32,000 bases of DNA from Fidelibacterota bacterium (GCA_046861385.1 JBHHTW010000013.1:25493-57492); one strand, 5' to 3'. Positions 7,307 through 28,341 are shown, counted from the first letter of the stretch. The notes: generated by a model not told the origin, from the sequence alone. Made by a program: numbers and translations.

Positions 7307-7540
7307 ATTGAACTATTTATGATGACTATAAAAATAATAAGTAAGAATACAAATACATGAATAATTTAGTTACCAACTTGGACCCTTTATGAGAAAACAT
7401 ATTTATAAGTACTGGTGCCGTAATAATATTGGACTGGGGTATTATAACGCTGTAAAATTGGTTAAACGAAAATATGTAATTGATGAATATTACATTTTAC
7501 AGACTTAAACTTTATCGTGGTTAGCAATCCAAATATAAAT

Positions 7541-8158
7541 ATGATTCGTACAATAAAATACAAAGCCGGTGAAATAATCCGACAAAAAAACGCTCATGTA
7601 TATATACTACATTTCATTTTTTGTTTATTGATTAGTTGCGCACCGTCAATTAAGGAGCTTTCAGAAACAGATCCTGAAGCTGTTATCAACAGGAAAAACG
7701 AATTACTTGCCGGCAGCTCTGTATCGAAAGAAGTAAAAACGGCGGTGATTAATGCCCATAATAAAATAGGCAATGAGGCATTAAGGCGGGAGGACTTAGA
7801 GGAAGCTGAAAAACAGTTCAATGAATCGTTGTTGTTAGATAATAAAAATAAACAAGCACATTACGGTTTAGCAATGATTAAAGGACTTCGCCGATTCAAG
7901 AAAGGAAGTAAGTCGGCACTATGGGAAGCCATGGAGAATTTTGGAAAAGCGGCCTTTTTTGACCCGGCAAAGGGAGACCCGCACTACTGGATGGGACGCA
8001 CATATGAGAAAAAAGATGATGGAGATTTTGACCTTATAATTGAAGCATATGAAAAAGCATTAGGATTGCCTCTTCCAGACCCCTTGAAACAAGATGCTCA
8101 AAATAGATTAGAATTAGTAAAAAAACACCAAAAAACCTTAGAGGATTTTTGGAACTAG
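7541..8158 (+). CDS. TPR-repeat lipoprotein
   Basis: The internal ATG gives MIRTIKYK...FIFCLLISC|APS with a lipobox (L-I-S-C). TPR-like helices follow (ALRREDLEEAEKQFNESLLLDNKNKQAHYGLA; PHYWMGRTYEKKDDGDFDLIIEAYEKAL). The tracked start at 7517 is GTG. Confidence 0.55.
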   Translation: MIRTIKYKAGEIIRQKNAHVYILHFIFCLLISCAPSIKELSETDPEAVINRKNELLAGSSVSKEVKTAVINAHNKIGNEALRREDLEEAEKQFNESLLLDNKNKQAHYGLAMIKGLRRFKKGSKSALWEAMENFGKAAFFDPAKGDPHYWMGRTYEKKDDGDFDLIIEAYEKALGLPLPDPLKQDAQNRLELVKKHQKTLEDFWN

Positions 8159-8426
8159 TCACAAGAGGAACTTACTTTAGTAGAGAAATTTCTAATAGTA
8201 TAAATTTTATGACGAAACCATTCAATCCTTACATAAGTAATAAAACCAATAAAATTAATCGAATATATAATTCACCAGCATATAGAATTAAATTCAGGGT
8301 TTTATTCTCGGAACTCCCCCCTAAAGTTCATTGAATATTTCTGCTTGACACTTGATAAAAGATGGAAGTAAACTTGTCTGTCCAAGGTAGACATTAGCCT
8401 TTGATATTCTTAACCGAGGTAAGTAA
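8159..8426 (+). promoter_or_regulatory. Putative promoter/leader region of the seven-gene rotor-stator operon
   Basis: A 268-nt AT-rich non-coding spacer precedes the first tightly packed gene. It contains TTGACA at 8345-8350 and a GAGGT Shine-Dalgarno at 8416-8420, 6 nt before the ATG at 8427. No convincing -10 box lies at canonical spacing, so the exact promoter is unresolved. Confidence 0.3.
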
Positions 8427-9587
8427 ATGAATAAAAAATCGCTAATAAGATATGCTATTCTTAGCCTATTTCTTATTTTATGTAATACAATTCTTTTTGC
8501 GAAAGATTATAAAGTAAGCGGAACTTTAGTCGATGCTAATGAAAATAAAATTGGCGGTGCAACCGTTCTGCTTCTCACGCCAGACGGCGTTGAATCTCAG
8601 CGAACCAACACGTCAAAACCGCGTATGGGCATGGGGGGCGGAAGTTTCAAATTTAAAGATGTTCTTCCTGGGGACTACGCCCTGGAAGTAGATGCCGGAG
8701 CCAAAGGATCTATAAATACACCCATAACAGTCACGGATACCGATGTTGAAGATATCGCACTGGTGTTATCCGTCAGCGATTCAAATACTGAAGAAGAATC
8801 CCCCACTAATATCACCAGCGTTGTAACGGTACCGGAAGAGGCGGTTGAATCCGGAAGTTCCCCTGAATATGTGGCGACTGAGATCAGTTTTGAATTGAAA
8901 AAGTTAGGCGCTGAAATCAAACACTTAAACTCTGAATTGGAGGATCTCAAAGCGTTAAGTAAAATGTGGGTAAATCCTCTATCCATTTATTCCAAAGAAA
9001 TTATCCTGCAAAATGGAAGCACCGTTTTCGGAAAAATTGTCTATCAGGACGAAGAAACACTTAAAGTAGAAACATTAGTAGGCTATTTAATCATTGAGAG
9101 AAAAAAGGTGGTTAGAGTAATCGATAATATTGTGTCAGAAGAAACTCAGGAATACGTTCCAGAGCAAATCAGAGACAGTTACTCTCCTCCTCCGATGCCA
9201 AAACTGGCAGAACCCAAGTATACTTCTGCAGATCCGCTTAATCGCAAAGCGGGAAAAAAATATTCTGCAAATTGTGTATTAGTTGGAAACATCAGTGAAA
9301 GCAAAGACAATCAGGGCGCCATCATTTTCACGGGAGAGGTTAAAAATATCGGTGGACGCCGGGCAGATTTTGTAAAGGTTGATTTTGTTTTCCGTAAAAA
9401 CTGGAGCGGTGAGACCAAAACACTTACCACGTTTGTCCGAGGAACTTACCACACTTTTGATTCTGGAATTACAACTGACGCGACGCTTCTTCCGGGCTCA
9501 AACGGGGCATTCGAACTTTTTATCCCCAACGATTTTGGTTCATTTATAGGCTATTCTTATGTCATAGATTGGGAGGAATACCAGTAG
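8427..9587 (+). CDS. Secreted protein: CarboxypepD_reg-like beta-sandwich, coiled coil, small beta domain, Pro-rich linker and C-terminal beta-sandwich
   Basis: Signal peptide MNKKSLIRYAILSLFLILCNTILFA. YKVSGTLVDANENKIGGATVLLLTPDG...GDYALEV is the typical CarboxypepD_reg-like pattern. A heptad-like stretch follows (ELKKLGAEIKHLNSELEDLKAL). This is the first gene of the operon. Confidence 0.6.
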   Translation: MNKKSLIRYAILSLFLILCNTILFAKDYKVSGTLVDANENKIGGATVLLLTPDGVESQRTNTSKPRMGMGGGSFKFKDVLPGDYALEVDAGAKGSINTPITVTDTDVEDIALVLSVSDSNTEEESPTNITSVVTVPEEAVESGSSPEYVATEISFELKKLGAEIKHLNSELEDLKALSKMWVNPLSIYSKEIILQNGSTVFGKIVYQDEETLKVETLVGYLIIERKKVVRVIDNIVSEETQEYVPEQIRDSYSPPPMPKLAEPKYTSADPLNRKAGKKYSANCVLVGNISESKDNQGAIIFTGEVKNIGGRRADFVKVDFVFRKNWSGETKTLTTFVRGTYHTFDSGITTDATLLPGSNGAFELFIPNDFGSFIGYSYVIDWEEYQ

Positions 9588-10477
9588 TGAAGGCACTGCA
9601 AAGTTCACGTTGGCTTTTATATTATATAAGTGCTGGAATTATTTTTTCCACCCCTTTAATTGCTCAACGGCAGACATCATCACTCTCCGAAATATTTTTA
9701 TTGGATCTAGGAATAGTTATTGAGCCTGAAACAGGTTCAGAAACATATTCCCGCCTTATAGAGACCCCGTCTCGAGAAGTAAATTTTAGGATTAAAAAGG
9801 TTCATAGCGGGTCTGTTTATATGGCAGCATCCGATGAATTATTAAGTGCAATTGAACGGATTAATGTTCGTATTTCTGATATGGAGACATCTTTTAAAAA
9901 TGAACTGATGGCGCTAAGGGCTGAAAACAAAGAGTTAAAAACTGTATTAACGAACTATCAATCAATCAATAACGAACCTAAAAAACCCATTATAGTGGCA
10001 GCGCCCGCCCCCCCTTCTCCAGAAAATGACATATTAATTGATCCATTACCCGAAGTGGCCAGTATACATATCGAACCCCTTTCTCCCGATAAATCTTTTA
10101 ATCAGCGGACATACATGGCAGGCGTTTTTGCATATCAGAGGGAAGACTTTGCGTCTGCTTTGAAATATTTTGCGAAGTTACATTTGGAATTAGCATCATT
10201 GGAAACAATTGATAATGTAATGTACTGGACAGCGGATGCGTATCAACAAATCCATAATGATCAAAAAGCGCTTGAAATATTAGACAAATTAATAGAAAAT
10301 CAAAATTCTTATCGTCTTGATGATGCGTTGGTAAAAAAAGGATTGCTGTATAAAAAAATCGGGCAATTAGATTTAGCAATGCAAGCATTCAGCCGGGTGG
10401 TAAAAGAGTATCCCAACAGTGAATATACTCGCTTGGCAAGTCTGGAACTAAAACGAGTGGAGATGGCTTTACAGTGA
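9587..10477 (+). CDS. Periplasmic coiled-coil plus CpoB/YbgF-like TPR protein
   Basis: The likely start is the GTG at 9587, overlapping the upstream TAG, with GGAGGA at 9572-9577 as the SD. The ORF track uses TTG 9569. Features are a signal peptide (LLYYISAGIIFSTPLIAQ), a coiled coil (ISDMETSFKNELMALRAENKELKTVL), a Pro-rich linker and a C-terminal TPR block ending KEYPNSEYTRLASLELKR. That ending resembles the YbgF/CpoB C-terminal domain. Confidence 0.6.
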   Translation: MKALQSSRWLLYYISAGIIFSTPLIAQRQTSSLSEIFLLDLGIVIEPETGSETYSRLIETPSREVNFRIKKVHSGSVYMAASDELLSAIERINVRISDMETSFKNELMALRAENKELKTVLTNYQSINNEPKKPIIVAAPAPPSPENDILIDPLPEVASIHIEPLSPDKSFNQRTYMAGVFAYQREDFASALKYFAKLHLELASLETIDNVMYWTADAYQQIHNDQKALEILDKLIENQNSYRLDDALVKKGLLYKKIGQLDLAMQAFSRVVKEYPNSEYTRLASLELKRVEMALQ

Positions 10478-11877
10478 GAAAAGTTAATTATAGTTTTATA
10501 TCAATATTATTGCTAATTACATCCTTATTGTTTGGAGCTACACGCGTGGCATATACACGCCCGGGTTTTATGATGAAAATTCCATCATCAAGCGTTCAGA
10601 AAGCGCCCTATTTATTCCGTACTGGTTTTGGGACAGAATTGCACAATTTTAATCCGTTTAATTCCGCCCAGGGTATTTATTTTGATATGGAACTTGGGAA
10701 AAACTTCACATTTGGTTTTTCATCTGTACAAACAGCCGATACAACGGCGCTTGCTTTGCTGGGAACAACCGGATACACTCCTCCTGTAGAATTTGGATTT
10801 CACATACAGCAACGAGTCTACACTTATAATAATATTTCTCTTTCAATTGGTCTCCAAGACATCGTATTTCAAAACGCTGAAAGCGGCGGGTTAAGCCTTA
10901 ACCCCGAGGAACTTTCCTTTTTTGCTGTCGTCAGCAGCGAGAAAAATCTCGGGAAATATCATTTAAGTACCTTTATGGGTTTTGGCTCTGGAGGTTTTTC
11001 TCCAGCGGACACACTTGTTGATACAACAACCGCGATCACTAGTACAGCATCGAACAATACGACAACCCAGGCAGGTGTTTTTATGGGGTTAATAATGAAC
11101 ACGCCATACTTGGAAAAATGGGGTGGTATTGATATTGTGGGTGAATTTGATGGTACAGGCATCAATGTGGGACTCCGCATCCCCCTTACCTCGGATTATC
11201 GCCTGAACCTTGGGTTCACCCACATAGAAAAACTTCCAGATTTCAAAACCCGTTATTGGGAAGGGCATCCAGGGGTCACCCTCGGCTTTGATATGGCAGT
11301 TCCAAAAACAGGACGCACTCCATCGTCAGAGGGCTTTGGAGGACCGTCGCCCCTTCCCGGCTCACAATTAAAACTTCCGGGAACCGGTCAATATGAATCA
11401 CTCTCTTCGTCAGCGGATTCAACATTAGCGCTTGCAGATTATGCGGTTCATACTGTCCGAGACTCCATGACGATGTTGAAAAACGAAATGCGCAACCTGA
11501 TGGTTAACTTGGCTTCTATCCAACAGCAATCTCAATTTTTAGAGGATTCATTATTGGCAATGAAACTGAATCGTAATGTAGATGAAAAAAACATGAACGA
11601 AGCCATGCGGCATTTGTCTCGGTCGTTAAGATATTTTTATTCCGGGGATTACAGAGCAGCCTTACAAGAGGTGGAATCTGCTTTGGACTTAAACCCGAAT
11701 CTGGCTTTAGCCTATGCCCGTCGAGGATCTATATACTATAAACTTGGAGATATTCAACGAGCAACCATCAACTGGAATCTAGCATTGCGCATGGATCCCG
11801 AATATGATGATGTCAGAAACATTTTAAAAGCCCTACACGAAAACCGTTTAAAATCGACGAGTGTAGTAGAGGAGTAA
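10474..11877 (+). CDS. Secreted beta-rich (possibly outer-membrane) domain, coiled coil and C-terminal TPR protein
   Basis: The GTG start overlaps the upstream stop (GTGA). The signal peptide is MRKVNYSFISILLLITSLLFGA. About 280 aa are Gly/aromatic-rich with alternating strands, followed by a coiled coil (MTMLKNEMRNLMVNLASIQQQSQFLEDSLLAMKL). TPRs close the protein (YSGDYRAALQEVESALDLNPNLALAYARRGSIYYKLGDIQRATINWNLALRMDP). Confidence 0.6.
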   Translation: MRKVNYSFISILLLITSLLFGATRVAYTRPGFMMKIPSSSVQKAPYLFRTGFGTELHNFNPFNSAQGIYFDMELGKNFTFGFSSVQTADTTALALLGTTGYTPPVEFGFHIQQRVYTYNNISLSIGLQDIVFQNAESGGLSLNPEELSFFAVVSSEKNLGKYHLSTFMGFGSGGFSPADTLVDTTTAITSTASNNTTTQAGVFMGLIMNTPYLEKWGGIDIVGEFDGTGINVGLRIPLTSDYRLNLGFTHIEKLPDFKTRYWEGHPGVTLGFDMAVPKTGRTPSSEGFGGPSPLPGSQLKLPGTGQYESLSSSADSTLALADYAVHTVRDSMTMLKNEMRNLMVNLASIQQQSQFLEDSLLAMKLNRNVDEKNMNEAMRHLSRSLRYFYSGDYRAALQEVESALDLNPNLALAYARRGSIYYKLGDIQRATINWNLALRMDPEYDDVRNILKALHENRLKSTSVVEE

Positions 11878-11881
11878 ATAG

Positions 11882-12664
11882 ATGGATATTGCAACACTAA
11901 TAGGAATAATACTTGGTTTAGGCTCTATTTTCAGCGGAATATTTCTTGCTGCATCGTCTGCAAATGCCGGTATGGGAGGTTTCGTATCACCTTCAAGCTT
12001 TGCGATTGTTGTGGGAGGAATGATTGCCTCCGTTTCTGTCGCTTTCCCCTTATCCGATGTTTTACAGCTGGGAGCGGCAATGGGTGCGGTGCTGAAAGGT
12101 GGAAAACTGAAACTGGGCACTGTTGTCGATGATGCAGTAGTGACAGCTGAAGTGGGAAGAAAAGGAGCGGCTGAATTAGAAAAAGCATTAGATGGAGTAA
12201 AAAATCCATTTTTTAAAGATGGCGTACAAATGGTAGTGGACGGTTATTCGTTGGATGAATTGACCGAGATTCTGGAAACCCGCATTGAGTATAGGGAGAT
12301 TCGCGAAAAAACACAAGCCGGGTTATTTAAATCGATGGGTACCATGGCGCCCGCCTGGGGGATGATAGGAACACTGATTGGGTTGGTAATTATGTTATCT
12401 GGTTTTGGCGGTGAAGGCGGAGCAGATGCGCTTGGTCCCGGTATGTCAGCAGCATTGATTACTACATTCTATGGCGCTGTTTTAGCGAATTTGTTTTTTC
12501 TACCCATGAGTGAAAAATTAAATACAAGAATTAGTTTTACCAGCACAATGCAAGCGATGCTTGTTGAAGCAGCGCGATTAATCCATCAGAAGAAGCACCC
12601 GTTAATTGTTCGGGAAAAATTAAATTCCTTTATTCCTCCTAAGGAGTGGAAAAAAGAAGATTAA
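11882..12664 (+). CDS. motA: Flagellar-type stator protein MotA/PomA (MotA/TolQ/ExbB proton-channel family)
   Basis: 260 aa with a 2+2 TM layout and a large cytoplasmic loop between TM2 and TM3. TM3 is MAPAWGMIGTLIGLV and TM4 is MSAALITTFYGAVLANLFFLPMSEKL, carrying both conserved MotA prolines. A GAGGAG SD lies 7 nt upstream. Confidence 0.9.
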   Translation: MDIATLIGIILGLGSIFSGIFLAASSANAGMGGFVSPSSFAIVVGGMIASVSVAFPLSDVLQLGAAMGAVLKGGKLKLGTVVDDAVVTAEVGRKGAAELEKALDGVKNPFFKDGVQMVVDGYSLDELTEILETRIEYREIREKTQAGLFKSMGTMAPAWGMIGTLIGLVIMLSGFGGEGGADALGPGMSAALITTFYGAVLANLFFLPMSEKLNTRISFTSTMQAMLVEAARLIHQKKHPLIVREKLNSFIPPKEWKKED

Positions 12665-12668
12665 TTAA

Positions 12669-13460
12669 ATGCCAAAAACAGCTAAAGAACAAAAAGCCTA
12701 TAAAGCAGGCATCGCACAAGGAAAAACCCTTGTAGACGAAGGTCTACCCGGGTGGTTTGGAACTTTTGCTGATATGATGACGCTCTTGTTTGCGTTCTTC
12801 GTTCTGTTGGCGGCTATATCAACAATTGATCCTGTAAAGTTGCAGGAAATGGCTGATGCCATGGGTAAGTCTGTGGGTAGTAAGATAAAAAAGGAAAGCC
12901 AGGCTATGAACTTAGCGGACATTAAGAAAGCAGTTCAGGAAATGGTAAAAGAAATGCAAGAAGACTCTGAAACTGGAGAAACACCGGTTGAAGTTACTAC
13001 CGGGCCAAAAGGAGTAACCATTGGAATTTCATCTGATATAAGCTTTGCCTCCGGATCAGCAAAAACAAAACCGCAGATTGTTGATATATTGACAAAAATT
13101 GTACCCACCATAGAGAAGTCTTATTTCCAGATAGCTGTGGAGGGACATACAGACAATGAAAAACTACCTGAAGCATTACAAGTCAAATATCCCACAAATT
13201 GGGAGCTGTCGTCTGCCAGAGCATCGGCGGTTGTAAGAGAATTAATTAGACTGGGGGTGAACCCCACTCGATTGGAAGCAGTGGGTTATGGCGAATATGT
13301 TCCGCGGGATCGCGCGTCACATGAGTTAATTACGGCTGAGGTGATAATGAAATATAATAACACACAGGACCAAAAATCCAGAAACAGGCGTGTGGAAATT
13401 ACATTCCTGGCTCCAAGTTACAGCAGGGCCGGTGGAGATGAAAGCGAGAGCAATTCATAG
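12669..13460 (+). CDS. motB: Flagellar-type stator protein MotB (OmpA-like peptidoglycan-binding domain)
   Basis: PGWFGTFADMMTLLFAFFVLL holds the conserved channel Asp at the start of the single TM. The C-terminal OmpA-like motifs are VEGHTDN...NWELSSARASAV...NRRVEI. Confidence 0.9.
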   Translation: MPKTAKEQKAYKAGIAQGKTLVDEGLPGWFGTFADMMTLLFAFFVLLAAISTIDPVKLQEMADAMGKSVGSKIKKESQAMNLADIKKAVQEMVKEMQEDSETGETPVEVTTGPKGVTIGISSDISFASGSAKTKPQIVDILTKIVPTIEKSYFQIAVEGHTDNEKLPEALQVKYPTNWELSSARASAVVRELIRLGVNPTRLEAVGYGEYVPRDRASHELITAEVIMKYNNTQDQKSRNRRVEITFLAPSYSRAGGDESESNS

Positions 13461-13504
13461 CCAAATGAATTATGAGAAAAATTTCGATAAGCAAAGGAGC
13501 TATC

Positions 13505-15043
13505 ATGAGAAAAGTTAATATTTACTGTAGATCATTTATACTGGCAATATTTTGCCTCAGTGTGAGCTGGGGACAGAATAATAATTATTTAGCCCAGAAA
13601 TTGATGGTTGAAAATGATTTGCGCCAGCGTATAACTGATGCTTTATCTAAAATTATTGATGACAGAAAATATGTTATCGATGTTAAAGCCGATATTGAAA
13701 TCAGTGATGGTACGGAAGAACAAATCACCATCATGGGAGAAGGAAAACAACCACCGTCAGGTCAAGTATTAGAAGATGTATCATCGGATTTACAACAATC
13801 ATTAGAAAAGCCTTCTTCTGACAGATCTTCCGGTATATCAAGCGGCTTGCCTATCCCCGGATTCGAGTTTGAATCAGATGGTGGAGACGCTTACGCGGCA
13901 GAAACCGGAACCGAACCTGAAATGTTAACTCAAAGCACCCCTTCTTTAAGCTCCAGTCAAAAGAGTAATATATTATCAAGAACTGTAACGAGTCGCCGCC
14001 CATCGAAAGCAATAATTACAAAATTGGATATCAGTATTATTTTACAGGAAGGAGCCGCTCCGGAATTGATTGAAAATATACGTCAAGTCGTTATGGTTTC
14101 TTCCGGTTTTAATAGAGCCCGGGGCGATGCCTTAAGTATTATGACAGCTACGTTTAAAGAACGACGAGACGAAAAAACAGCGGAACAGATTTTATTAAAA
14201 AATATTGCTGAAAAACTTGAATCTCTGGAACAGCAGCAATCAGGCGACGGTTCTGTTCACTGGAAAGATGAACTGGATAGCTATAAAGCTCAGGAAGAAG
14301 AAAGGCGCGAGCAAGATAAATTGTATTTCCAGCAGCAACTCACTAATCTGGAATCAGAAGCAAGAAATCGTGCGTATCAAACAGAAAAAAGAGAGATGTT
14401 AAGACGTGATTCCTTAAAACTTATAGAGTTAAACAAAGAAATCAATGACTTAAAATCAATGATGGCTTCTTCTGATGTTTCGGTGGATGAAGTTGGACAG
14501 GCCCAAAATGCCATCGGTGAAAAAATCAGCGAGAAAGAATCGCTGGATGTAAAAATTGCTGAAAAACTGGCCATGCTTGATGCGGTTCAATCCGATCTTG
14601 ATCGCAGTATGGGCGGTGGGCCTTCTACAATGATGGTTGTTTTCGTTTCCCTTTTGGGTGCGTTGGTAATCGTCTTGGTTGTGGCGCTGATAATCATAAT
14701 GATGGGAAATAAACAAAAACAGCAACTTCCACCCCCGTGGATGTACCCACCTCGGCCTCGGAAAAAAAAAAGTAAAAATAAACCAGTGACACCCATTACC
14801 CAACCGGCGCCATCTGCACCTGCACCCCGACCTGTTGAAGATACTGCCGTTCTGCAAAGCGAAGTTTCTGATATGAAACAAGCCGTTGTCTCCATGAGCG
14901 TTGGGCAACCGGGTACTGCCACAAGAATTGTAAAAGAATGGATGGAAGACGATGTGCCGCCGCCAGAACCGGAACCGGCTGCTCCTGTGGAAGCTGAAGA
15001 AGAAGATAGCGGTAAAAAGAAAAAGAAAAAAAAGAAAAAGTAA
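13505..15043 (+). CDS. Reduced FliF-like (MS-ring-like) bitopic membrane protein
   Basis: The ATG at 13505 has an AAGGAG SD 5 nt upstream; the track start 13472 is less likely. After an N-terminal hydrophobic segment, ENDLRQRITDALSKIIDDRKYVIDVKADIEIS resembles the start of FliF RBM3. ITKLDISIILQEG..IENIRQVVMVSSGFNRARGDALSIMTATF (about 14009-14155) resembles its end (RLSVAVVV...A.GF...RGD...V....F). About 150 aa of E/Q/K-rich coiled coil follow, then TM2 (14630-14704) and a Pro-rich tail. The tail contains GTATRIVKEWMEDD (14912-14953), which resembles the FliG-binding C-terminal helix of FliF, then an acidic stretch and K9. Confidence 0.55.
   Translation: MRKVNIYCRSFILAIFCLSVSWGQNNNYLAQKLMVENDLRQRITDALSKIIDDRKYVIDVKADIEISDGTEEQITIMGEGKQPPSGQVLEDVSSDLQQSLEKPSSDRSSGISSGLPIPGFEFESDGGDAYAAETGTEPEMLTQSTPSLSSSQKSNILSRTVTSRRPSKAIITKLDISIILQEGAAPELIENIRQVVMVSSGFNRARGDALSIMTATFKERRDEKTAEQILLKNIAEKLESLEQQQSGDGSVHWKDELDSYKAQEEERREQDKLYFQQQLTNLESEARNRAYQTEKREMLRRDSLKLIELNKEINDLKSMMASSDVSVDEVGQAQNAIGEKISEKESLDVKIAEKLAMLDAVQSDLDRSMGGGPSTMMVVFVSLLGALVIVLVVALIIIMMGNKQKQQLPPPWMYPPRPRKKKSKNKPVTPITQPAPSAPAPRPVEDTAVLQSEVSDMKQAVVSMSVGQPGTATRIVKEWMEDDVPPPEPEPAAPVEAEEEDSGKKKKKKKKK
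14762..14771 (+). repeat. A10 homopolymer inside the FliF-like CDS (encodes RKKKSK)
   Basis: Read directly: g-aaaaaaaaaa-gt at 14761-14773. A second purine-only Lys-coding tract, (AAA/AAG)x9, lies at 15014-15040. Confidence 0.9.
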
Positions 15044-15052
15044 GGTAACAAT

Positions 15053-15985
15053 ATGATTACAGATTACAATAGACTTTCCGGTCTGCAAAAAGCAGCCGTT
15101 CTTTTCTCCGTTTTAGGTGAGGGGTTAGCTCTCTCTCTTGTTAAAGATCTTTCAAAGACTGAAATTCGAAAAGTACGAGCAGCGATGCGCGATTTGGATA
15201 ATGTCTCATTTTTAATAAAAAAACGAGTTATGGAAGAATTTTACTTCAGTTTTGTCAGTGAAAAATTTTATGATGAAAATTCTGACGAACCCAAAAAACC
15301 GTTCTCATTTTTAGACGATATTACAGATGAACAATTATTTGCGCTCATTAAACCAGAATCTGCATCAGTGGCCGCCATTGTTTTGGCACAGATTCCGGGA
15401 GAAAGACGAATGAAAATTGTGGAGCGGTTCGATGCTATGTCAAAAGGTGAAATCATTATGGAAATGGGAAATCTAAAGGATATTCCACTTGAAGCGGTCG
15501 TAAGCGTTGCAACCGACCTAATGAAAAAATCCAAATTATTACCCAAAACAGTTGCTTTCTCCCGGGGCGGAGGAAAAGATATTGCTGACATTCTTGGCGG
15601 ATTATCATCGGAGGAAGAAAAATTATTTCTTGAAAATATTTCTCGAGAAAACCCGGAATTAGCAGATGATATTAAAAAATATCATTTGACCTGGGAGATC
15701 ATATTCGAAGTATTACCCGACAGCACGTTACGCGATTTAATGAATTCTGTCGAACTGGATTCCATTGCCATGGCGCTGAAAGGAATGCCGGAAGACGTTG
15801 TGAATCGGGTGATCGAAAATCTACCGCAAAAGAAACAGGCTATGTATGAACCGGTTGAAGGGGCTGTTTCCAAGCGGGAAGTTGATAATGCAAGAAAACA
15901 AATTGTATCCTCCGCGAAAAAAATGGAAAAAGACGGAGCTTTCAATCTGTCGGACTTAGTCGGCGGTGGAGACATGGTAGAATAA
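15053..15985 (+). CDS. fliG: FliG homologue (rotor/torque-ring protein), short form with a degenerate FliM-binding motif
   Basis: 310 aa, collinear with FliG over its whole length. Matches are LSGLQKAAVLFSVLGEGLALSLVKDLSKTEI (FliG-N), KPFSFL, GGGKDIADIL, ENPELADDIKK, IAMALKGMPEDVVNRVIENLPQKK and the charged C-terminal helix SKREVDNARKQIV. Confidence 0.85.
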   Translation: MITDYNRLSGLQKAAVLFSVLGEGLALSLVKDLSKTEIRKVRAAMRDLDNVSFLIKKRVMEEFYFSFVSEKFYDENSDEPKKPFSFLDDITDEQLFALIKPESASVAAIVLAQIPGERRMKIVERFDAMSKGEIIMEMGNLKDIPLEAVVSVATDLMKKSKLLPKTVAFSRGGGKDIADILGGLSSEEEKLFLENISRENPELADDIKKYHLTWEIIFEVLPDSTLRDLMNSVELDSIAMALKGMPEDVVNRVIENLPQKKQAMYEPVEGAVSKREVDNARKQIVSSAKKMEKDGAFNLSDLVGGGDMVE

Positions 15986-16011
15986 GATCTTTGTAGGATA
16001 AATTTATTACA

Positions 16012-16047
16012 AACAGCCTTCGCTAATTGAGAGGGCTGTTTTATTTT
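16012..16047 (+). terminator. Rho-independent terminator ending the rotor-stator operon
   Basis: The stem CAGCCTTC (16014-16021) pairs with GAGGGCTG (16031-16038), with one G-U pair and a 9-nt loop. TTTTATTTT follows. It lies 27 nt after the fliG-like stop. Confidence 0.65.
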
Positions 16048-21324: not shown

Positions 21325-21356
21325 TAAAAAAGCCCCGGAATATCGGGGCTTTTTTA
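21325..21356. terminator. Bidirectional rho-independent terminator between convergent sdhB and tonB
   Basis: AAAAAA-AGCCCCG-gaatat-CGGGGCT-TTTTT: a perfect 7-bp GC-rich stem (21331-21337 with 21344-21350) flanked by A- and T-tracts. It can therefore terminate both strands. The T-tract side overlaps the tonB stop codon. Confidence 0.75.
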
Positions 21357-21971
21357 TTTAAGTCTAAAATTAACCGGGATTGAAATCCAAACCCCTACAG
21401 CACGTTCCCGCTGTTTCGCCGGTCTAAAACGTGTTCTTCGAATCGCTTCAATTGCGGCTTCGTCCAATCCGGTGTTTGGGATACCTTTTAAAATCGATGT
21501 TTCTTTTACTCGTCCTTTTTTATCAACAAAAACCTGAACAATAACCGTTCCTTCGATGCCGGCTTCCTGGGCGATTTCCGGATATTTCGGGCGAATAGGC
21601 GATAACGGTTTTGGTGGGTCATCATAGGGAATGAATTTTACCTGCGGTCCTTCCGGCGGCGGCGGCGGCGCATCCCAAGCCTCAAAACTTTCTAAATCCG
21701 TTTCTTCAATGGTTAGGTCATCCGCAAGGTCTTCAGACTCCGACTCAATCGGCACAGAAGGTCTTGCCGGAGGCGGGGGTAAATCAAATTGCTGTGTCTG
21801 AGGAATATCAATCTGTTCGATGATAATTTGATTCGCATCTTCTAATACAACTGTTGTGAAACTTCGAGGAACAAACAGAAAACCAAATGTAATGATCAAT
21901 ATTCCAACAAGCCCTGCAATCCTCACCGTTAAGGAATAGTTAAATTTCAGTTGGGGTGTATAATCGCTCAT
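21354..21971 (-). CDS. tonB: TonB family energy-transducer protein
   Basis: 205 aa. It has an N-terminal TM anchor, Pro-rich spacers (LPPPPARP, PPPPPEGP) and a C-terminal TonB domain (YPEIAQEAGIEGTVIVQVFVDKKGRV...RFRPA). Confidence 0.8.
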   Translation of the reverse strand: MSDYTPQLKFNYSLTVRIAGLVGILIITFGFLFVPRSFTTVVLEDANQIIIEQIDIPQTQQFDLPPPPARPSVPIESESEDLADDLTIEETDLESFEAWDAPPPPPEGPQVKFIPYDDPPKPLSPIRPKYPEIAQEAGIEGTVIVQVFVDKKGRVKETSILKGIPNTGLDEAAIEAIRRTRFRPAKQRERAVGVWISIPVNFRLK

Positions 21972-21974
21972 GAT

Positions 21975-22385
21975 TTAATTAACAGCTGTTTTCGTAGAAT
22001 AGTTAAGCTTTAATGCATCAGCTTTCCGCAATTCATTGTGTATATTAGAAATAAGTCCCATTTTTGCAGATTTGTCTGCTTTTAGGGAGACGGTTAATAA
22101 TGGGTCAGCTGAACGAATCTCATACATTACATGACGTACAGATTCTATATTATGCAATTTATCTTGAATGGATATCAAGCCTTTTTTATCCACAAAGACA
22201 TGAGCAGTATGACGTTTGGATTTTAATTTTTCAATACGTTTTGCCCGGGGTAATTCGACAGGCAAACCATCATATTCACGAAGAACGGTTGTGACCATAA
22301 AAAATATCAGCAGCATAAATATAATGTCCGGCATCGATGCCGTTGGGATGTCGCTTGAAATTTTCGTCTTACGTTGAACTTTCAT
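21975..22385 (-). CDS. exbD: ExbD/TolR family biopolymer transport protein (copy 2)
   Basis: 136 aa. MPDIIFMLLIFFMVTT holds the conserved TM Asp, with the periplasmic domain following. Confidence 0.85.
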   Translation of the reverse strand: MKVQRKTKISSDIPTASMPDIIFMLLIFFMVTTVLREYDGLPVELPRAKRIEKLKSKRHTAHVFVDKKGLISIQDKLHNIESVRHVMYEIRSADPLLTVSLKADKSAKMGLISNIHNELRKADALKLNYSTKTAVN

Positions 22386-22780
22386 TAGTCGGACTCAGCA
22401 ATGGATATTCGTTTTGCATTGGCCATTTTTAGCTGATCAATCACAGAAATATAGTCGCTATATTTTGTTTTTTCATGAGCCTTCACAGAAATAATCAGCT
22501 TATCATTTTCCGCAATTCTACGACGAATTTCCTTACTAATATCACTTATTCTTACAGGATCACGGCCCAAAAGAACATCGCCCTTTGAATTAATAAGACA
22601 ATTTAGGATATTGTCTTTCTTTATTTCTATCTCTTCACCCTCCGCGGGGAGTACGATACCCAACCCTTTATCCATATCTATCGTAGTTGTCACTAAGAAA
22701 AAAATGAGCAGAAGAAAGGCAATATCTGCCATGGAAGAAGTCGGGATTTCACCCCCTTTGAATCGACGCTTATTTTTCAT
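22385..22780 (-). CDS. exbD: ExbD/TolR family biopolymer transport protein (copy 1)
   Basis: 131 aa. It has MADIAFLLLIFFLVTT, and its stop overlaps the next start by 1 nt. Confidence 0.85.
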   Translation of the reverse strand: MKNKRRFKGGEIPTSSMADIAFLLLIFFLVTTTIDMDKGLGIVLPAEGEEIEIKKDNILNCLINSKGDVLLGRDPVRISDISKEIRRRIAENDKLIISVKAHEKTKYSDYISVIDQLKMANAKRISIAESD

Positions 22781-22798
22781 TCGCTTTGATTCTCGAAA

Positions 22799-23416
22799 TT
22801 ATTTATTTAATTGCATTTCATATAGTTTATCAACCAATTGGATTGAATGCTCCTCCATTTCCAAAACCAGTTTATCAATTCTGGAAACAAATAAGTTTTG
22901 AAAAATTTGGATAATCATTGCGACAATCAGACCAAAAGCAGTGGTTAACAATGCCTGTGAAATACCACCGGCAACAACAGCGGGTGAAATATCATCCGCA
23001 GCAGCAATAGCATCAAAAGCAGAAATCATCCCGGCGACTGTACCTGTAAAACCAAGCATCGGAGCAATGGTAATAACAGCATTTAGCCAAATCATGTTTT
23101 TTTCAAGAAAAGACATTTCTAAGGAACCGGCGTTTTGAATTGCCTTTTCAACTTCTTCTAAACCTCTGTTAATTCGAGAAAGACCAGCATGAAAAATTTC
23201 AGCTACAGGACCGTTTGTTTTTTCACAAAGCTCCATGCAGGCTTTTTCACCCTCATTCTTCAATGTGTCATTAACATCATCGAAAAACTTTTGTGCATTA
23301 ATTGATGACATGATCAGTGAATAAAAACGCTCACCTGCAAAAGCAAGCCCAAAAATCAATGACAATAATATTGGCCACATAAAGGGACCACCATTTACGA
23401 AATATTCGACTAGCAT
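22799..23416 (-). CDS. exbB: ExbB (MotA/TolQ/ExbB proton-channel family)
   Basis: 205 aa. It has IAPMLGFTGTVAGMI and ALLTTAFGLIVAMI, the family TM2/TM3 signature. A GGAGG SD lies upstream on the minus strand (about 23421-23425). Confidence 0.85.
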   Translation of the reverse strand: MLVEYFVNGGPFMWPILLSLIFGLAFAGERFYSLIMSSINAQKFFDDVNDTLKNEGEKACMELCEKTNGPVAEIFHAGLSRINRGLEEVEKAIQNAGSLEMSFLEKNMIWLNAVITIAPMLGFTGTVAGMISAFDAIAAADDISPAVVAGGISQALLTTAFGLIVAMIIQIFQNLFVSRIDKLVLEMEEHSIQLVDKLYEMQLNK

Positions 23417-26298: not shown

Positions 26299-28341
26299 AT
26301 GAAAAGTGGAATCATTTTTACCATTTTTCTTCATTTTGTACTCTATTCCGAGCATATGTTTGTAAAAGGCACATTTGATTTTGATCAAGATGGCAGGAGC
26401 GAAATATTGCTGTTTAATGAAAGCCGTCTTCGTTTTGTGGAAATAGATGACGAAGGTCAACATCAATTGCTTTGGGGACTGACTCCGGAATATTATTCCA
26501 TTAAGGATGCGTTTATAGTTGATTTACAAAACAATGGAATTAACGATTTAATTGTATTGACAGAATATTCTCCGGATTTCCTTTCGAAAAACACAGAATG
26601 GCTAAAACTATTTTCCTGGAGCCAATCCCAATTTGAATTAGTTGATGTTGAATTAATCAAAAATAAATTGATGCATCCAAATAATGGTGATTATGAGTCA
26701 ACCTCCAGAAGGCTTTCCATTGCCTTTGGGAATCCTTCCAGAACAGTTTTCTTTGTGCAGTTTAATGATGGCGGCACCACCGATACAATCAATGTTCAAT
26801 TACCTCAAAGTTTACATAATGGCATTGGACATCTATTTGCGCGTTTTATGAATGTTGACGGCGAATCCCACTTGGCAGTGTTTTCCAACGAAGGTAATTT
26901 ATTAAATACTGGTTTGTTTAAATTGGAAAAGGAACCGGTGATCATCGCAGAAAAATCACTCCCATTGAATAACGCCACCAACTTACCTGGACCAGCCATT
27001 TATAAAACCGATTTAGATGGAGATCACACAGACGAATTACAACTGCCGTTTATGAACGGAGTAGTACAAACTCTGGCTTTCGTGGACAATAATCTCACGT
27101 TGACTTTAAGTAAATTTAGCAGGAAAGAATTGTTTGTAGTTCCTGAGACCGCCTCCGCGGAAACGATCAATAACGTTTTAATATCCCGGGTAGAATCCGG
27201 ATTAATGAGTCAGCGCATTTCCGACGGTGTAGAATTGGAATCTATTGTTATTATTCCCAATGACACCTTATATCTCGGTGATACCTTATTTTATAGGGCG
27301 GTTGCGGGTACCGGAAGCGGTTTTTATAGTTTTCACTGGTTAAGCCCTCCTCCTGTCGGAGCGCGTTTCGATCCTACAACCGGTCTGATAACATGGGCGC
27401 CTTCACGAAGCCAACTCGGAATTCATGAATTTAAATATTTTGCTGAAAAAAGCCTGAAAGATGAATTGATTTCAGATGTTGATCTTTTTGGAGATCGTTA
27501 CCGCATGGTCCCCGTTATTGAGGAAAATGAACAAGTATATGCAGTGATCGTAAATGATACTGCAAAAACTCAAATTGTGTATAATCCGCCCAGAGATGAA
27601 CCATATATGATTATGGTTCAGACCACTGAAAAAAAAGAAGGTAAAAAACGATTTATCTTTAACGGGGTACCCTCTTTTCATGTAATAGTAAAAGAATTTC
27701 CACATCCAAATTATTTCCAGATTTCCCACTCAATTTCTGCAAATCTTGGTAGTGTGGAAAAAAATAAATCAGTAAACTTTTCTTATTCATCATCCAATCA
27801 AGATAGTATCATAAATTTGATGAAGCTCATTATCAATCATGACCTTAATAAAAATACAATTCAAGCCCGAATAGAACCTTCATTGGATACGACAACTATC
27901 AGCTTGAATCCGGAGAATTGGAAATCTGAATTGCAGACATATCCCGAGTATCATTTTAATGGATTTCCTGAGTCAATGCGCCTTGGAGAGTCTGACAAAG
28001 GTATTTCGTTATACGAAAATGAAAATAATCAAACATCCAATCAATCTTCTTTCATATCAATCCTGACTCCGAATGGAGGACACACACACACGATCTCTAT
28101 CGAGATGTCAGAGATGGAATTATGGAATATTAGAGGAGATGTAACGGTAGACAGCTCCGGCGGGAAAAGAATCAGGACCTCAATGACGTTTTCCGGAGAA
28201 TTTGATCTTTTGAGTGTAAGCGCAGAAACAAACGTTGAGATGGACTCTCTCAATCAAATAAGAGAAATGAAATTCAAGAGACTGGAATATTTAGGTGTTG
28301 AAAGTGTTGTTGTAGATTCCGGCGGAGCAGAAATGCAATGA
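26299..28341 (+). CDS. Secreted FG-GAP/VCBS-like plus single He_PIG (Ig-like) domain protein, paralogue of the next gene
   Basis: 680 aa. It has an N-terminal hydrophobic leader and a Ca-loop-like FDFDQDGRSEILL. One Ig-like unit is YSFHWLSPPPVGARFDPTTGLITWAPSRSQLGIHEFKYFAE (about 27270-27450). The N-terminus and Ig unit align with the downstream protein. Confidence 0.6.
   Translation: MKSGIIFTIFLHFVLYSEHMFVKGTFDFDQDGRSEILLFNESRLRFVEIDDEGQHQLLWGLTPEYYSIKDAFIVDLQNNGINDLIVLTEYSPDFLSKNTEWLKLFSWSQSQFELVDVELIKNKLMHPNNGDYESTSRRLSIAFGNPSRTVFFVQFNDGGTTDTINVQLPQSLHNGIGHLFARFMNVDGESHLAVFSNEGNLLNTGLFKLEKEPVIIAEKSLPLNNATNLPGPAIYKTDLDGDHTDELQLPFMNGVVQTLAFVDNNLTLTLSKFSRKELFVVPETASAETINNVLISRVESGLMSQRISDGVELESIVIIPNDTLYLGDTLFYRAVAGTGSGFYSFHWLSPPPVGARFDPTTGLITWAPSRSQLGIHEFKYFAEKSLKDELISDVDLFGDRYRMVPVIEENEQVYAVIVNDTAKTQIVYNPPRDEPYMIMVQTTEKKEGKKRFIFNGVPSFHVIVKEFPHPNYFQISHSISANLGSVEKNKSVNFSYSSSNQDSIINLMKLIINHDLNKNTIQARIEPSLDTTTISLNPENWKSELQTYPEYHFNGFPESMRLGESDKGISLYENENNQTSNQSSFISILTPNGGHTHTISIEMSEMELWNIRGDVTVDSSGGKRIRTSMTFSGEFDLLSVSAETNVEMDSLNQIREMKFKRLEYLGVESVVVDSGGAEMQ

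What the first reader, a model, noticed from the sequence alone, without database searches (positions are those of the whole stretch)
8427..15985. Seven-gene operon joining a MotAB stator to a FliF-like/FliG-like rotor, with no export, rod, hook, C-ring or filament genes
Seen in the sequence:
- Seven same-strand ORFs have almost no spacing. There is a TAG/GTG overlap at 9585-9589 and a GTGA overlap at 10474-10477. Gaps of 4 nt lie at 11878-11881 and 12665-12668, at most 44 nt precede the FliF-like gene, and 9 nt precede the FliG-like gene.
- A 268-nt AT-rich spacer lies upstream and a strong hairpin plus T-tract lies immediately downstream (16012-16047). The next gene is a glutamate-cysteine ligase.
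- The products are three signal-peptide proteins built from coiled coils and TPRs, then MotA, MotB, a cut-down FliF-like protein and a FliG homologue.

Established knowledge: in canonical loci fliF-fliG sit in a fliE/fliFGHIJ context. The MS ring houses the FlhAB/FliPQR export gate, and FliG docks FliM/FliN. None of those genes, and no flg or fliC gene, occurs anywhere in this 32 kb.

Inference: this is one of two things. It could be an atypical fragment of a dispersed flagellar regulon. It could instead be a flagellum-derived, ion-driven rotary module that has lost (or never had) the type III export core and passes torque to periplasmic or outer-membrane TPR partners. I do not know of the second arrangement as a described system.
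Basis: partly seen in the sequence, partly recalled or inferred. Interest (0 to 1): 0.88.

Follow-up and report, generated by a model that had tools for sequence, protein, structure and literature searches.

The report
Flagellar rotor-stator cassette without export apparatus
A tightly packed seven-gene operon, conserved across the abundant ocean phylum Fidelibacterota (SAR406/Marinimicrobia), joins a flagellar-type MotAB stator, a FliG and a cut-down FliF ring protein to outer-membrane and periplasmic partners, and looks like an undescribed envelope machine built from flagellar motor parts but without the secretion core, rod, hook or filament.

Summary

**What the genes encode**
- MotA/MotB is a flagellar-type stator with its key residues invariant.
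- The FliG has N, M and C domains, but its FliM-binding EHPQR motif has decayed.
- The FliF relative keeps only the RBM3/β-collar ring domain, one membrane helix and the C-terminal FliG-binding helix. It has gained a ~150-residue periplasmic coiled coil.
- Upstream lie a novel coiled-coil/β-sandwich protein, a CpoB-like coiled-coil/TPR protein, and a 12-stranded outer-membrane β-barrel with a periplasmic helix and TPR.

**Conservation**
- The order is colinear in every one of 80 species-level genomes examined, all labelled Marinimicrobia or unclassified MAGs.
- It also holds in relatives at 22–31% identity.
- dN/dS is 0.04–0.16 for all seven genes.
- No other flagellar gene appears in 1.5 Mb of flanking DNA.

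**Reading**
- Best reading: an ion-driven rotor–stator module with no type III export gate and no switch, which delivers mechanical work to the envelope.
- I found no description of it in the searchable literature.
- Main gap: whole genomes could not be scanned for a canonical flagellar gene set.
- The output function is inferred, not shown.

The parts
7517..8158 (+). Small TPR protein (213 aa). Possible loosely linked accessory, not part of the tight operon.
   Evidence: TPR_11 E 3e-7. A homologue lies upstream of the cassette in 48 loci, but at variable distance and sometimes with other genes in between.
8345..8374 (+). Promoter-like site in the 268-nt AT-rich spacer.
   Evidence: TTGACA-18-TAAACT, 10 of 12 matches. 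This is a consensus match only. The total number of such sites in the region is no higher than in shuffled sequence.
8427..9587 (+). ORF1 (386 aa). Signal peptide, CarboxypepD_reg-like Ig domain, coiled coil, small beta domain, Pro-rich linker, and a C-terminal beta-sandwich ending IGYSYVIDWEEYQ.
   Evidence: PF13620 E 2e-7. The core from the coiled coil to the C-terminus is conserved in relatives at 36-47% identity. Those relatives lack the Ig domain, and one of them (L090) has a clear lipobox-like N-terminus (LSGC). No Pfam or PDB match for the core. dN/dS 0.06-0.08.
9587..10477 (+). ORF2 (296 aa from GTG 9587; alternative start TTG 9569). Signal peptide, coiled coil, and a CpoB/YbgF-/BamD-like TPR domain.
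   Evidence: TPR_6 E 7e-13; TIGR02795 YbgF E 3e-10 and BamD E 1e-6, both below their cut-offs. It is the least conserved gene of the cassette. It is duplicated in some distant loci and undetected in nine loci.
10474..11877 (+). ORF3 (467 aa). Signal peptide, 12-stranded outer-membrane beta-barrel (aa 46-277), disordered linker, 75-residue helix, and a C-terminal TPR.
   Evidence: AF2 model: 12 strands followed by helices. Foldseek against PDB gives KdgM, NanC, FapF and OmpG barrels (E about 1e-5, TM-score on target up to 0.74). TPR_2 E 3e-9. 55-94% identity across the phylum, dN/dS 0.04-0.08.
11882..12664 (+). MotA/PomA-type stator A subunit (260 aa).
   Evidence: PF01618 E 1e-27; MotP E 1e-50 and PomA E 6e-44, against TolQ E 0.01 and ExbB E 0.08. 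The equivalents of E98, P173 and P222 are invariant in 75 of 75 sequences. An invariant R in 'RKG' sits one column from R90.
12669..13460 (+). MotB-type stator B subunit (263 aa), with plug, TM Asp and an OmpA-like peptidoglycan-binding domain.
   Evidence: MotB_plug E 2e-15 and OmpA E 2e-13. The equivalent of D32 (D35) is invariant in 78 of 78 sequences.
13505..15043 (+). FliF-like ring protein (512 aa; 523 aa from the alternative ATG at 13472). Signal or TM1 segment, RBM3 with beta-collar, ~150-aa coiled coil, TM helix, and a cytoplasmic tail.
   Evidence: PF08345 39 bits, only over aa 58-228. TIGR00206 FliF scores 22.8 bits against a cut-off of 129.75. AF2 topology is alpha-beta-[long hairpin and loop]-beta-alpha-beta. 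The top 18 Foldseek PDB hits are all FliF S-ring/RBM3 (E 8e-6 to 8e-5). hhalign aligns aa 46-233 with E. coli FliF 238-436.
13844..13873 (+). Conserved GLPIPGFEFE motif in the otherwise disordered loop at the tip of the collar. Candidate docking peptide for a periplasmic partner.
   Evidence: G125, L126, P127, I128, P129, G130, F131 and F133 are invariant in alignment A1. P129 is invariant and G130 near-invariant among relatives at 21-57% identity. The loop has pLDDT below 50. The partner is an inference.
14843..14947 (+). Cytoplasmic helix-turn-helix of the FliF-like tail, the putative FliG-N binding site.
   Evidence: 'SDMKQAVVSMSVGQPxTAxxIVKEWM' aligns with the C-terminal FliG-binding segment of Vibrio FliF, 'EDVLKAVRALVANEPELAAQVVKNWM'. 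It is the most conserved stretch across the whole family.
15014..15040 (+). Poly-lysine C-terminus (K9) of the FliF-like protein.
   Evidence: Read from the sequence. Conserved in the Marinimicrobia subgroup and absent from the distant members. Function unknown.
15053..15985 (+). FliG-like rotor protein (310 aa) with N, M and C domains.
   Evidence: FliG_N E 1e-17, FliG_M E 1e-8, FliG_C E 6e-19. TIGR00207 scores 110.7 bits against a cut-off of 226.7. PDB FliG matches reach E 7.5e-21. K264 is invariant, R281 is replaced by K, and an invariant E sits at the D288/D289 position. Of the EHPQR motif only E is kept.
16011..16047 (+). Intrinsic terminator that closes the operon.
   Evidence: 11-bp GC-rich stem followed by a U-tract; -16.6 kcal/mol, z = -4.6.

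Best explanation
The cassette encodes an envelope-spanning machine built from the rotor-stator half of the flagellar motor, without the type III export half.

**Proposed mechanism**
1. MotA5B2-type stator units, anchored to peptidoglycan through MotB's OmpA-like domain, conduct H+ or Na+ through the conserved Asp.
2. The stators push on a ring of FliG-like subunits.
3. That FliG ring is held on the cytoplasmic tail of a FliF-like protein, which oligomerises through its RBM3/beta-collar domain into an S-ring-like ring just outside the inner membrane.
4. There is no RBM1/RBM2 socket for an export gate and no FliM docking site, so the motor would have no secretion function and no CheY-controlled switch.
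5. Mechanical work leaves through the periplasmic parts of the FliF-like protein: the collar-tip PIPGF motif and the 150-residue coiled coil.
6. The work is received by three co-conserved partners: ORF1 (coiled coil and beta-sandwich, possibly a lipoprotein), ORF2 (CpoB-like coiled coil and TPR) and ORF3 (12-stranded outer-membrane barrel with a periplasmic helix and TPR).
7. The purpose would be an outer-membrane or envelope task rather than turning a filament.

**Shown:** domain identities, conserved key residues, operon structure, phylum-wide synteny and purifying selection.

**Inferred:** ring formation, rotation, the FliF-FliG and FliG-MotA contacts, the coupling to ORF1-3, and the physiological output.
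For: **Domain and fold assignments**
- Family hits for all seven products.
- FliG matches in PDB.
- FliF-like model and fold search.
- ORF3 model and fold search.

**FliF-like protein**
- The homology covers only RBM3 and the collar, plus the FliG-binding C-terminal helix.
- There is no PF01514/RBM1-2 hit.

**Key residues**
- Stator residues are invariant across 75-78 family members.
- FliG torque-helix charges are partly kept: K264, K at position 281, and an acidic residue at position 288.
- Of the FliM-binding EHPQR motif, only E is conserved.

**Stator type.** MotA is far closer to PomA/MotP (E 1e-50) than to TolQ or ExbB (E 0.01 or worse).

**Synteny**
- All seven genes are colinear on one strand in every one of 80 species-level genomes, wherever the contig reaches.
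- The order is kept in relatives at 22-31% FliF-like identity.

**Selection.** dN/dS is 0.04-0.16 for all seven genes, as low as or lower than the neighbouring gshA-like gene.

**No flagellar neighbours**
- Of 31 E. coli flagellar and chemotaxis proteins, only FliF (weakly), FliG, MotA and MotB find anything in 1.5 Mb of flanks.
- The Pfam-annotated contexts show none either.

**Family size.** The FliF-like family is narrow and separate from canonical FliF: 299 cluster representatives among 1.84 billion.

**Phenotype and literature**
- The only cultured member of the phylum is non-motile (PMC11652737).
- Genome papers on SAR406 report flagellar motility for other lineages but not for SAR406 (PMC5596340).
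Against: - No whole genome carrying the cassette could be scanned, so a canonical flagellar gene set elsewhere in these genomes is not excluded.
- It is unknown whether the non-motile isolate IA91 carries the cassette.
- The AF2 models have modest confidence (mean pLDDT 60-63).
- A wide ring cannot rotate while tethered through peptidoglycan to an outer-membrane barrel, so continuous rotation and a direct tether to ORF3 are hard to reconcile.
- The FliG torque helix is three residues shorter than in E. coli and lacks the R297 equivalent.
- No experiment, expression data or imaging exists.
Confidence: 0.6

Rival explanations
1. These are ordinary flagellar genes. The organisms are flagellated, the rest of the regulon is dispersed elsewhere in the genome, and this operon supplies the MS ring, FliG and stators, with ORF1-3 acting as lineage-specific periplasmic motor accessories like the collars, discs and T/H rings of other bacteria.
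For: - All four core products belong to flagellar families, and MotA is PomA/MotP-like.
- Many flagellar motors carry lineage-specific TPR or outer-membrane-linked scaffolds (established knowledge).
- Whole genomes were not scanned.
Against: - The FliF-like protein lacks RBM1 and RBM2, which hold the export gate in every described flagellum.
- The FliG EHPQR site for FliM has decayed.
- A profile of the family does not retrieve canonical FliF.
- The scores lie far below NCBIfam's FliF and FliG cut-offs.
- No fliE/H/I/J, flg or flh gene lies in 1.5 Mb around 93 copies.
- The cultured representative of the phylum is non-motile.
- SAR406 genome papers do not report flagella.
Confidence: 0.12
2. 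The machine is not a freely rotating motor but a Ton/Tol-like force transducer. MotAB works against a FliG/FliF-like assembly to pull on or gate the ORF3 outer-membrane barrel, giving energised import or export through a FapF/KdgM-like channel, or to tension the envelope as a Tol-Pal analogue, with ORF2 acting like CpoB.
For: - ORF3 is a 12-stranded barrel resembling the gated channels FapF and KdgM, and it carries a long periplasmic helix and TPR.
- ORF2 has CpoB/YbgF-like architecture.
- The FliF-like protein has a TolA-like long periplasmic helical segment.
- Tethering through peptidoglycan argues against free rotation (inference).
Against: - The parts retained are specifically the ring-forming RBM3 domain and a full three-domain FliG with torque-helix charges, and the stator is of flagellar rather than Tol/Exb type. 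These features make most sense for a ring rotor.
- No TonB box, TolB or Pal homologue lies in the operon.
- A separate ExbB-ExbD-ExbD-TonB set lies 5 kb downstream.
Confidence: 0.22
3. The cassette is a decaying remnant of an ancestral flagellum with no present function.
For: Reduced flagellar gene sets persist in some non-motile bacteria, for example Chlamydia (PMC4768692).
Against: - All seven ORFs are intact in all loci examined.
- dN/dS is 0.04-0.16 at near-saturated dS.
- Catalytic and interface residues are invariant.
- Gene order is conserved down to 22% identity.
Confidence: 0.02

Closest known systems
Bacterial flagellar motor core (FliF MS ring, FliG, MotA5B2/PomAB stator)
   Same: - Homologous stator with the conserved Asp, prolines and charged loop.
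- Three-domain FliG.
- FliF RBM3/collar fold and the C-terminal FliG-binding helix.
- fliF-fliG adjacency.
   Different: - No RBM1 or RBM2.
- No FliM-binding EHPQR motif.
- No export gate, ATPase, C-ring, rod, hook, L/P-ring or filament genes nearby.
- A ~150-residue periplasmic coiled coil is inserted before the TM helix.
- Operon partners are an outer-membrane barrel-TPR protein, a CpoB-like TPR protein and a novel beta-sandwich protein.
Chlamydial FliF-FliG fusion and orphan flagellar genes (Bergeron 2016, PMC4768692)
   Same: A cut-down FliF linked to FliG sequence in bacteria not known to build flagella.
   Different: - Chlamydia keeps RBM2 rather than RBM3 and fuses FliF to only a FliG-M-like region.
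- It keeps FlhA and FliI homologues and has no dedicated MotAB.
- Here RBM3 is kept, FliG is full-length and separate, and the stator is present.
[quoted passage not shown]
   Same: A derivative of flagellar parts that keeps one functional half of the machine.
   Different: It is the reciprocal reduction. The injectisome keeps the export apparatus and SctJ/SctD rings and lacks FliG and MotAB. This cassette keeps the rotor and stator and lacks the export apparatus.
Tol-Pal (TolQRA-TolB-Pal-CpoB) and ExbBD-TonB
   Same: - An ion-driven 5:2 motor in the inner membrane.
- A long helical periplasmic element.
- An outer-membrane partner.
- A coiled-coil/TPR CpoB-like protein in the same operon.
   Different: - The stator is of the flagellar MotAB class (TolQ E 0.01, ExbB E 0.08).
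- A FliG/FliF ring is interposed.
- There are no TolA, TolB, Pal or TonB homologues in the operon.
Myxococcus Agl-Glt and Bacteroidota GldLM/T9SS gliding motors
   Same: Non-flagellar envelope-spanning machines in which a MotAB-family motor drives periplasmic TPR and outer-membrane barrel proteins.
   Different: - Those motors are TolQR-like or GldLM and have no FliG or FliF.
- Only weak sub-threshold hits to GltJ and GltE were found (E 5e-4 and 0.045; cut-offs 450 and 225 bits).
SpoIIIAG sporulation ring
   Same: An RBM3-type ring-building motif with a beta-collar insertion, used outside a flagellum.
   Different: - No FliG, no stator, and a Firmicute sporulation context.
- The Foldseek top hits here are FliF rather than SpoIIIAG.

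Membership tests
Flagellar MS-ring protein FliF | Three periplasmic ring-building motifs (RBM1-RBM2 = PF01514, RBM3 = PF08345) between two TM helices. | tested here: not met
   Only PF08345 hits, over aa 58-228. TIGR00206 scores 22.8 bits against a cut-off of 129.75 and covers model positions 238-449 only. hhalign covers E. coli FliF 238-436 only.
Flagellar MS-ring protein FliF | RBM3/beta-collar fold. | tested here: met
   AF2 topology. The top 18 Foldseek PDB hits are all FliF S-ring/RBM3, with probability 1.0.
Flagellar MS-ring protein FliF | C-terminal cytoplasmic FliG-binding helices. | tested here: met
   The segment aligns with Vibrio FliF 551-579 and is the most conserved stretch of the family. 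This alignment stretch on its own scored only 3.5 bits. Binding itself was not tested.
Flagellar rotor protein FliG | N, M and C domains. | tested here: met
   PF14842, PF14841 and PF01706 all score above their gathering cut-offs. The whole protein is below the TIGR00207 cut-off (110.7 bits against 226.7).
Flagellar rotor protein FliG | EHPQR motif of the middle domain, which binds FliM. | tested here: not met
   E is kept in 80 of 82 sequences. The H, P and Q positions and the R160 position are variable; in the window the motif EHPQ reads ESAS, and R160 is E.
Flagellar rotor protein FliG | Charged torque-helix residues (E. coli K264, R281, D288, D289, R297). | tested here: inconclusive
   K264 is invariant and R281 becomes K in 81 of 82 sequences. 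D288/D289 fall in a 3-residue deletion next to an invariant E. R297 is not conserved.
Flagellar stator MotAB/PomAB | MotB TM Asp, MotA P173 and P222, charged cytoplasmic loop, plug, and OmpA-like domain. | tested here: met
   D, P, P and E are invariant, and an invariant R lies one column from R90. Plug and OmpA domains are present. The best NCBIfam models are MotP and PomA, though below their equivalog cut-offs.
Bacterial flagellum (whole organelle) | Type III export gate and ATPase (FlhA, FlhB, FliPQR, FliHIJ), C-ring (FliM/N), rod, hook and filament genes. | tested here: inconclusive
   None was found in the 32-kb window, in about 46 kb of the same genome, or in 1.5 Mb around 93 copies. Whole genomes could not be scanned with these tools.
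Tol-Pal / TonB-ExbBD | TolQ/ExbB-type A subunit with TolR/ExbD, plus TolA or TonB. | tested here: not met
   TolQ E 0.0096 and ExbB E 0.076, against MotP E 1e-50. There is no TonB_C or TolA in the operon. A genuine ExbB-ExbD-ExbD-TonB set lies at 21354-23416.
Zorya anti-phage system | ZorA and ZorB with ZorC/D or ZorE. | tested here: not met
   Only MotB hits the ZorB models, through shared MotB homology. There are no ZorA or other hits.
Agl-Glt gliding machinery | AglRQS motor with GltA-K proteins. | tested here: not met
   GltJ scores 19 bits against a cut-off of 450, and GltE 12.7 bits against 225.

The most novel reading that the evidence does not exclude
Fidelibacterota, one of the most abundant bacterial phyla of the dark ocean, carry a previously undescribed class of rotary envelope machine. 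It is a FliF(RBM3)-FliG rotor driven by MotAB that works entirely without a type III secretion system, rod or filament, and it is coupled to an outer-membrane barrel. It would be the mirror image of the injectisome. It would show that the rotor-stator module of the flagellum is a separable unit that can be re-used on its own, or that may pre-date its union with the export apparatus.
Probability: 0.45. Interest if true: 0.92.

Novelty: new variant of a known kind. Interest (0 to 1): 0.8.

Why it matters
**Flagellar evolution.** The flagellum is usually treated as an indivisible union of a secretion system and a motor. The injectisome shows that the secretion half can stand alone, but no free-standing rotor-stator half has been described. 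A conserved FliF(RBM3)-FliG-MotAB cassette under purifying selection, with its own outer-membrane and periplasmic partners, would make modular models of flagellar origin directly testable.

**Marine microbiology.** It would also point to an unknown energy-consuming envelope function in SAR406/Marinimicrobia, a globally abundant and almost uncultured lineage.

**Annotation.** These genes are routinely labelled 'flagellar motor switch protein FliG' or 'FliF'. Marker-gene surveys may therefore count their hosts as motile. One such survey uses fliG as one of three motility markers (PMC10359470).

Tried and rejected
**Searches that did not work**
- A broad 12-sequence alignment (A2, 21-57% identity) was too divergent to seed the genome scan, so a narrower one (A3) was used.

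**Literature**
- Nine searches found no description of the cassette.
- The main Marinimicrobia genome papers and the MotAB evolution paper were read. None describes it, and none states whether flagellar genes are present or absent.
- The Nature Microbiology paper on isolate IA91 is not held.

**Readings considered and rejected**
- Anti-phage Zorya: rejected, because only MotB hits ZorB.
- A riboswitch or other RNA element in the upstream spacer: no Rfam match.
- A link to T9SS cargo through the neighbouring giant surface protein: no Por/T9SS sorting-domain hit.
- Decaying relic: rejected by the dN/dS values.

**Dead ends**
- The ORF1 core has no Pfam or PDB relative.
- Taxon names for distant relatives could be recovered for only one cluster, which is again labelled Neomarinimicrobiota.

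Full report
**Observation**

The seven + strand ORFs exist as described.
- Direct reading of the junctions confirms the TAG/GTG overlap at 9585-9589 and the GTGA overlap at 10474-10477.
- It also confirms the two 4-nt gaps, the 9-nt gap before the FliG-like gene, and a gap of at most 44 nt before the FliF-like gene.
- The likely start of the FliF-like gene is ATG 13505, behind an AAGGAG. The ATG at 13472 is the longest alternative.
- The 268-nt AT-rich spacer upstream contains one promoter-like site.
- The hairpin just downstream folds at -16.6 kcal/mol (z = -4.6) and is followed by a T-tract.
- The flanks are housekeeping genes: purA, a solute symporter, dehydrogenases, a gshA-like ligase, sdhCAB, an ExbB-ExbD-ExbD-TonB set and a tail-specific protease.
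- The same genome continues into a purine-biosynthesis cluster on one side and a phosphatase gene on the other.

**What the products are**

*MotA and MotB*
- MotA matches PF01618 (E 1e-27).
- Among NCBIfam models it is closest to MotP and PomA (E 1e-50 and 6e-44), against TolQ E 0.01 and ExbB E 0.08. It is therefore a flagellar-class stator, not a Tol/Exb one.
- MotB has the plug and an OmpA-like domain.

*FliG-like protein*
- It has all three FliG domains.
- It matches solved FliG structures (E 7.5e-21).

*FliF-like protein*
- It matches only PF08345 over residues 58-228. It falls far below the FliF equivalog cut-off (22.8 bits against 129.75).
- An AlphaFold2 model (mean pLDDT 62.7, with the RBM region at 75-87) gives alpha-beta-[two 20-25-residue strands and a disordered loop]-beta-alpha-beta. 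This is followed by about 150 residues of helix, one TM helix and a cytoplasmic tail.
- The top 18 Foldseek hits in PDB are all FliF S-ring/RBM3/collar structures (E 8e-6 to 8e-5).
- hhalign places residues 46-233 on E. coli FliF 238-436.
- A profile search of PDB also aligns the tail segment 'SDMKQAVVSMSVGQPxTAxxIVKEWM' with the FliG-binding C-terminus of Vibrio FliF, though that stretch alone scored only 3.5 bits.
- So the protein keeps the S-ring-forming domain and the FliG handle. It lacks RBM1 and RBM2, the part of FliF that surrounds the export gate (established knowledge from MS-ring structures).

*ORF1, ORF2 and ORF3*
- ORF3 is a signal-peptide protein with 12 beta-strands, a linker, a 75-residue helix and a TPR. 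Its barrel resembles KdgM, NanC, FapF and OmpG.
- ORF2 has the coiled-coil-plus-TPR build of CpoB/YbgF.
- ORF1 has an Ig-like CarboxypepD_reg domain and a conserved core with no known relatives.

**Functional residues**

These were checked across 75-82 family members aligned with the E. coli proteins.
- The MotB Asp is invariant.
- MotA P173, P222 and E98 equivalents are invariant, and an invariant Arg sits one column from R90.
- FliG K264 is invariant, R281 is Lys, and an invariant Glu sits at the edge of a 3-residue deletion that removes D288/D289. R297 is lost.
- Of the EHPQR motif that binds FliM, only Glu survives. R160 becomes Glu, Ser or Asn.
- The stator-rotor interface therefore looks largely kept, and the switch-complex interface looks abandoned.

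**Distribution and selection**
- The window's proteins are 100% identical to those of a Fidelibacterota MAG.
- A scan of one genome per species found 156 genomes with a relative. The best 80 are all labelled Marinimicrobia, Neomarinimicrobiota, Fidelibacterota, FCB group or unclassified MAG.
- In all of those 80, the genes are colinear on one strand wherever the contig extends far enough. ORF2 is the exception: it was undetected in nine loci.
- Relatives at 22-31% FliF-like identity keep the order [ORF1-like][one or two YfiO/TPR_6 proteins][~450-aa TPR protein][MotA][MotB][FliF-like][FliG].
- One of these distant clusters is again labelled Neomarinimicrobiota.
- A profile of the FliF-like family finds only 299 cluster representatives among 1.84 billion proteins, so it does not merge with canonical FliF.
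- Pairwise dN/dS is 0.04-0.16 for all seven genes, against 0.11-0.14 for the neighbouring ligase. dS is near saturation, so the ratios are approximate.

**Are these simply the organism's flagellar genes?**
- Of 31 E. coli flagellar and chemotaxis proteins searched against the window and 93 loci (1.5 Mb), only FliF (one weak hit), FliG, MotA and MotB matched.
- The Pfam-annotated neighbourhoods show no flagellar families.
- The only cultured member of the phylum is described as non-motile (PMC11652737). I could not establish whether it carries the cassette.
- A SAR406 genome study reports flagellar genes for other lineages but, for SAR406, only Por/T9SS-related genes (PMC5596340). Two other Marinimicrobia genome papers never mention flagella.
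- None of this replaces a whole-genome scan, which these tools do not allow. That scan is the main open test.
- Even if canonical flagella existed in these genomes, an RBM3-only FliF and a FliG without a FliM site could not be the standard MS ring and switch.

**Mechanism**

The parts suggest the following chain.
1. PG-anchored MotA5B2 units turn against a FliG-like ring.
2. That ring is attached to the tails of an RBM3 ring.
3. There is no export gate and no switch.
4. The output goes through the periplasmic face.

Two points bear on the output.
- One conserved feature stands out: a PIPGF motif (GLPIPGFEFE in the window) inside the otherwise variable, disordered loop at the tip of the collar. 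It is conserved even in the most distant relatives. TPR domains bind short peptides, so I infer that this motif docks ORF2 or ORF3. This was not tested.
- A ring tethered through peptidoglycan to an outer-membrane barrel cannot spin freely. The output may therefore be tension or gating, in the manner of Ton/Tol, rather than continuous rotation. I keep this as a serious rival.

**Comparison and novelty**
- The closest known system is the flagellar motor itself, but defining features of FliF (RBM1/2) and of switch-competent FliG (EHPQR) were tested and not met.
- The nearest precedent for cut-down FliF/FliG outside a flagellum is the chlamydial FliF-FliG fusion. It keeps a different domain (RBM2) and has no stator (PMC4768692).
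- In concept the cassette is the reciprocal of the injectisome.
- Nine literature searches found no description of it.
- I rate it a new variant of a known kind, with a substantial chance that it is a new class of machine.

Noticed in passing
window 21354-23416 (- strand): A complete ExbB-ExbD-ExbD-TonB cluster lies 5 kb downstream of the cassette. The same arrangement is seen next to the cassette in a relative (L006). The genome therefore has a separate Ton-type motor close by.
   Followed up: partly
window 15014-15040: The FliF-like protein ends in nine consecutive lysines after an acidic, proline-rich stretch. The poly-K tail is conserved in the Marinimicrobia subgroup and absent from distant family members. 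Its function is unknown; binding to membrane or a polyanion is a guess.
   Followed up: partly
window 7517-8158: A small TPR protein lies upstream of the cassette in 48 loci, at variable distance and sometimes separated from it by PmbA/TldD genes. It may be a loosely linked accessory or only a syntenic neighbour.
   Followed up: partly
window 26299-32000 (+); full length in L102:10001-15702: Two adjacent large secreted proteins: one of 680 aa with an FG-GAP repeat, and one of 1220 aa with FG-GAP, Big_9, cadherin-like and He_PIG Ig domains. Neither has a detectable T9SS sorting domain.
   Followed up: partly
L045 and L083 (both from MAG NP55, PBTS01): One MAG carries two divergent copies of the cassette (FliF-like 49% and 39% identity to the window). 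This is either a true duplication or a mixed bin.
   Followed up: no
L079 (2.9-kb contig): A cassette fragment sits in a MAG labelled SAR86 (Gammaproteobacteria). On so short a contig this is most likely a binning error rather than horizontal transfer.
   Followed up: no
L090:5277-7101 and L093:2772-4284: In distant lineages the CpoB-like TPR gene is duplicated in tandem. In nine Marinimicrobia loci no ORF2 homologue was detected between ORF1 and ORF3. The TPR adaptor is the evolutionarily plastic part of the cassette.
   Followed up: partly
window 14456-15088 and 14587-15051 (- strand): Long antisense ORFs (210 and 154 aa) overlap the 3' part of the FliF-like gene. Their translations are low-complexity, and they are most likely artefacts of the purine-rich, repetitive coding strand.
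   Followed up: no
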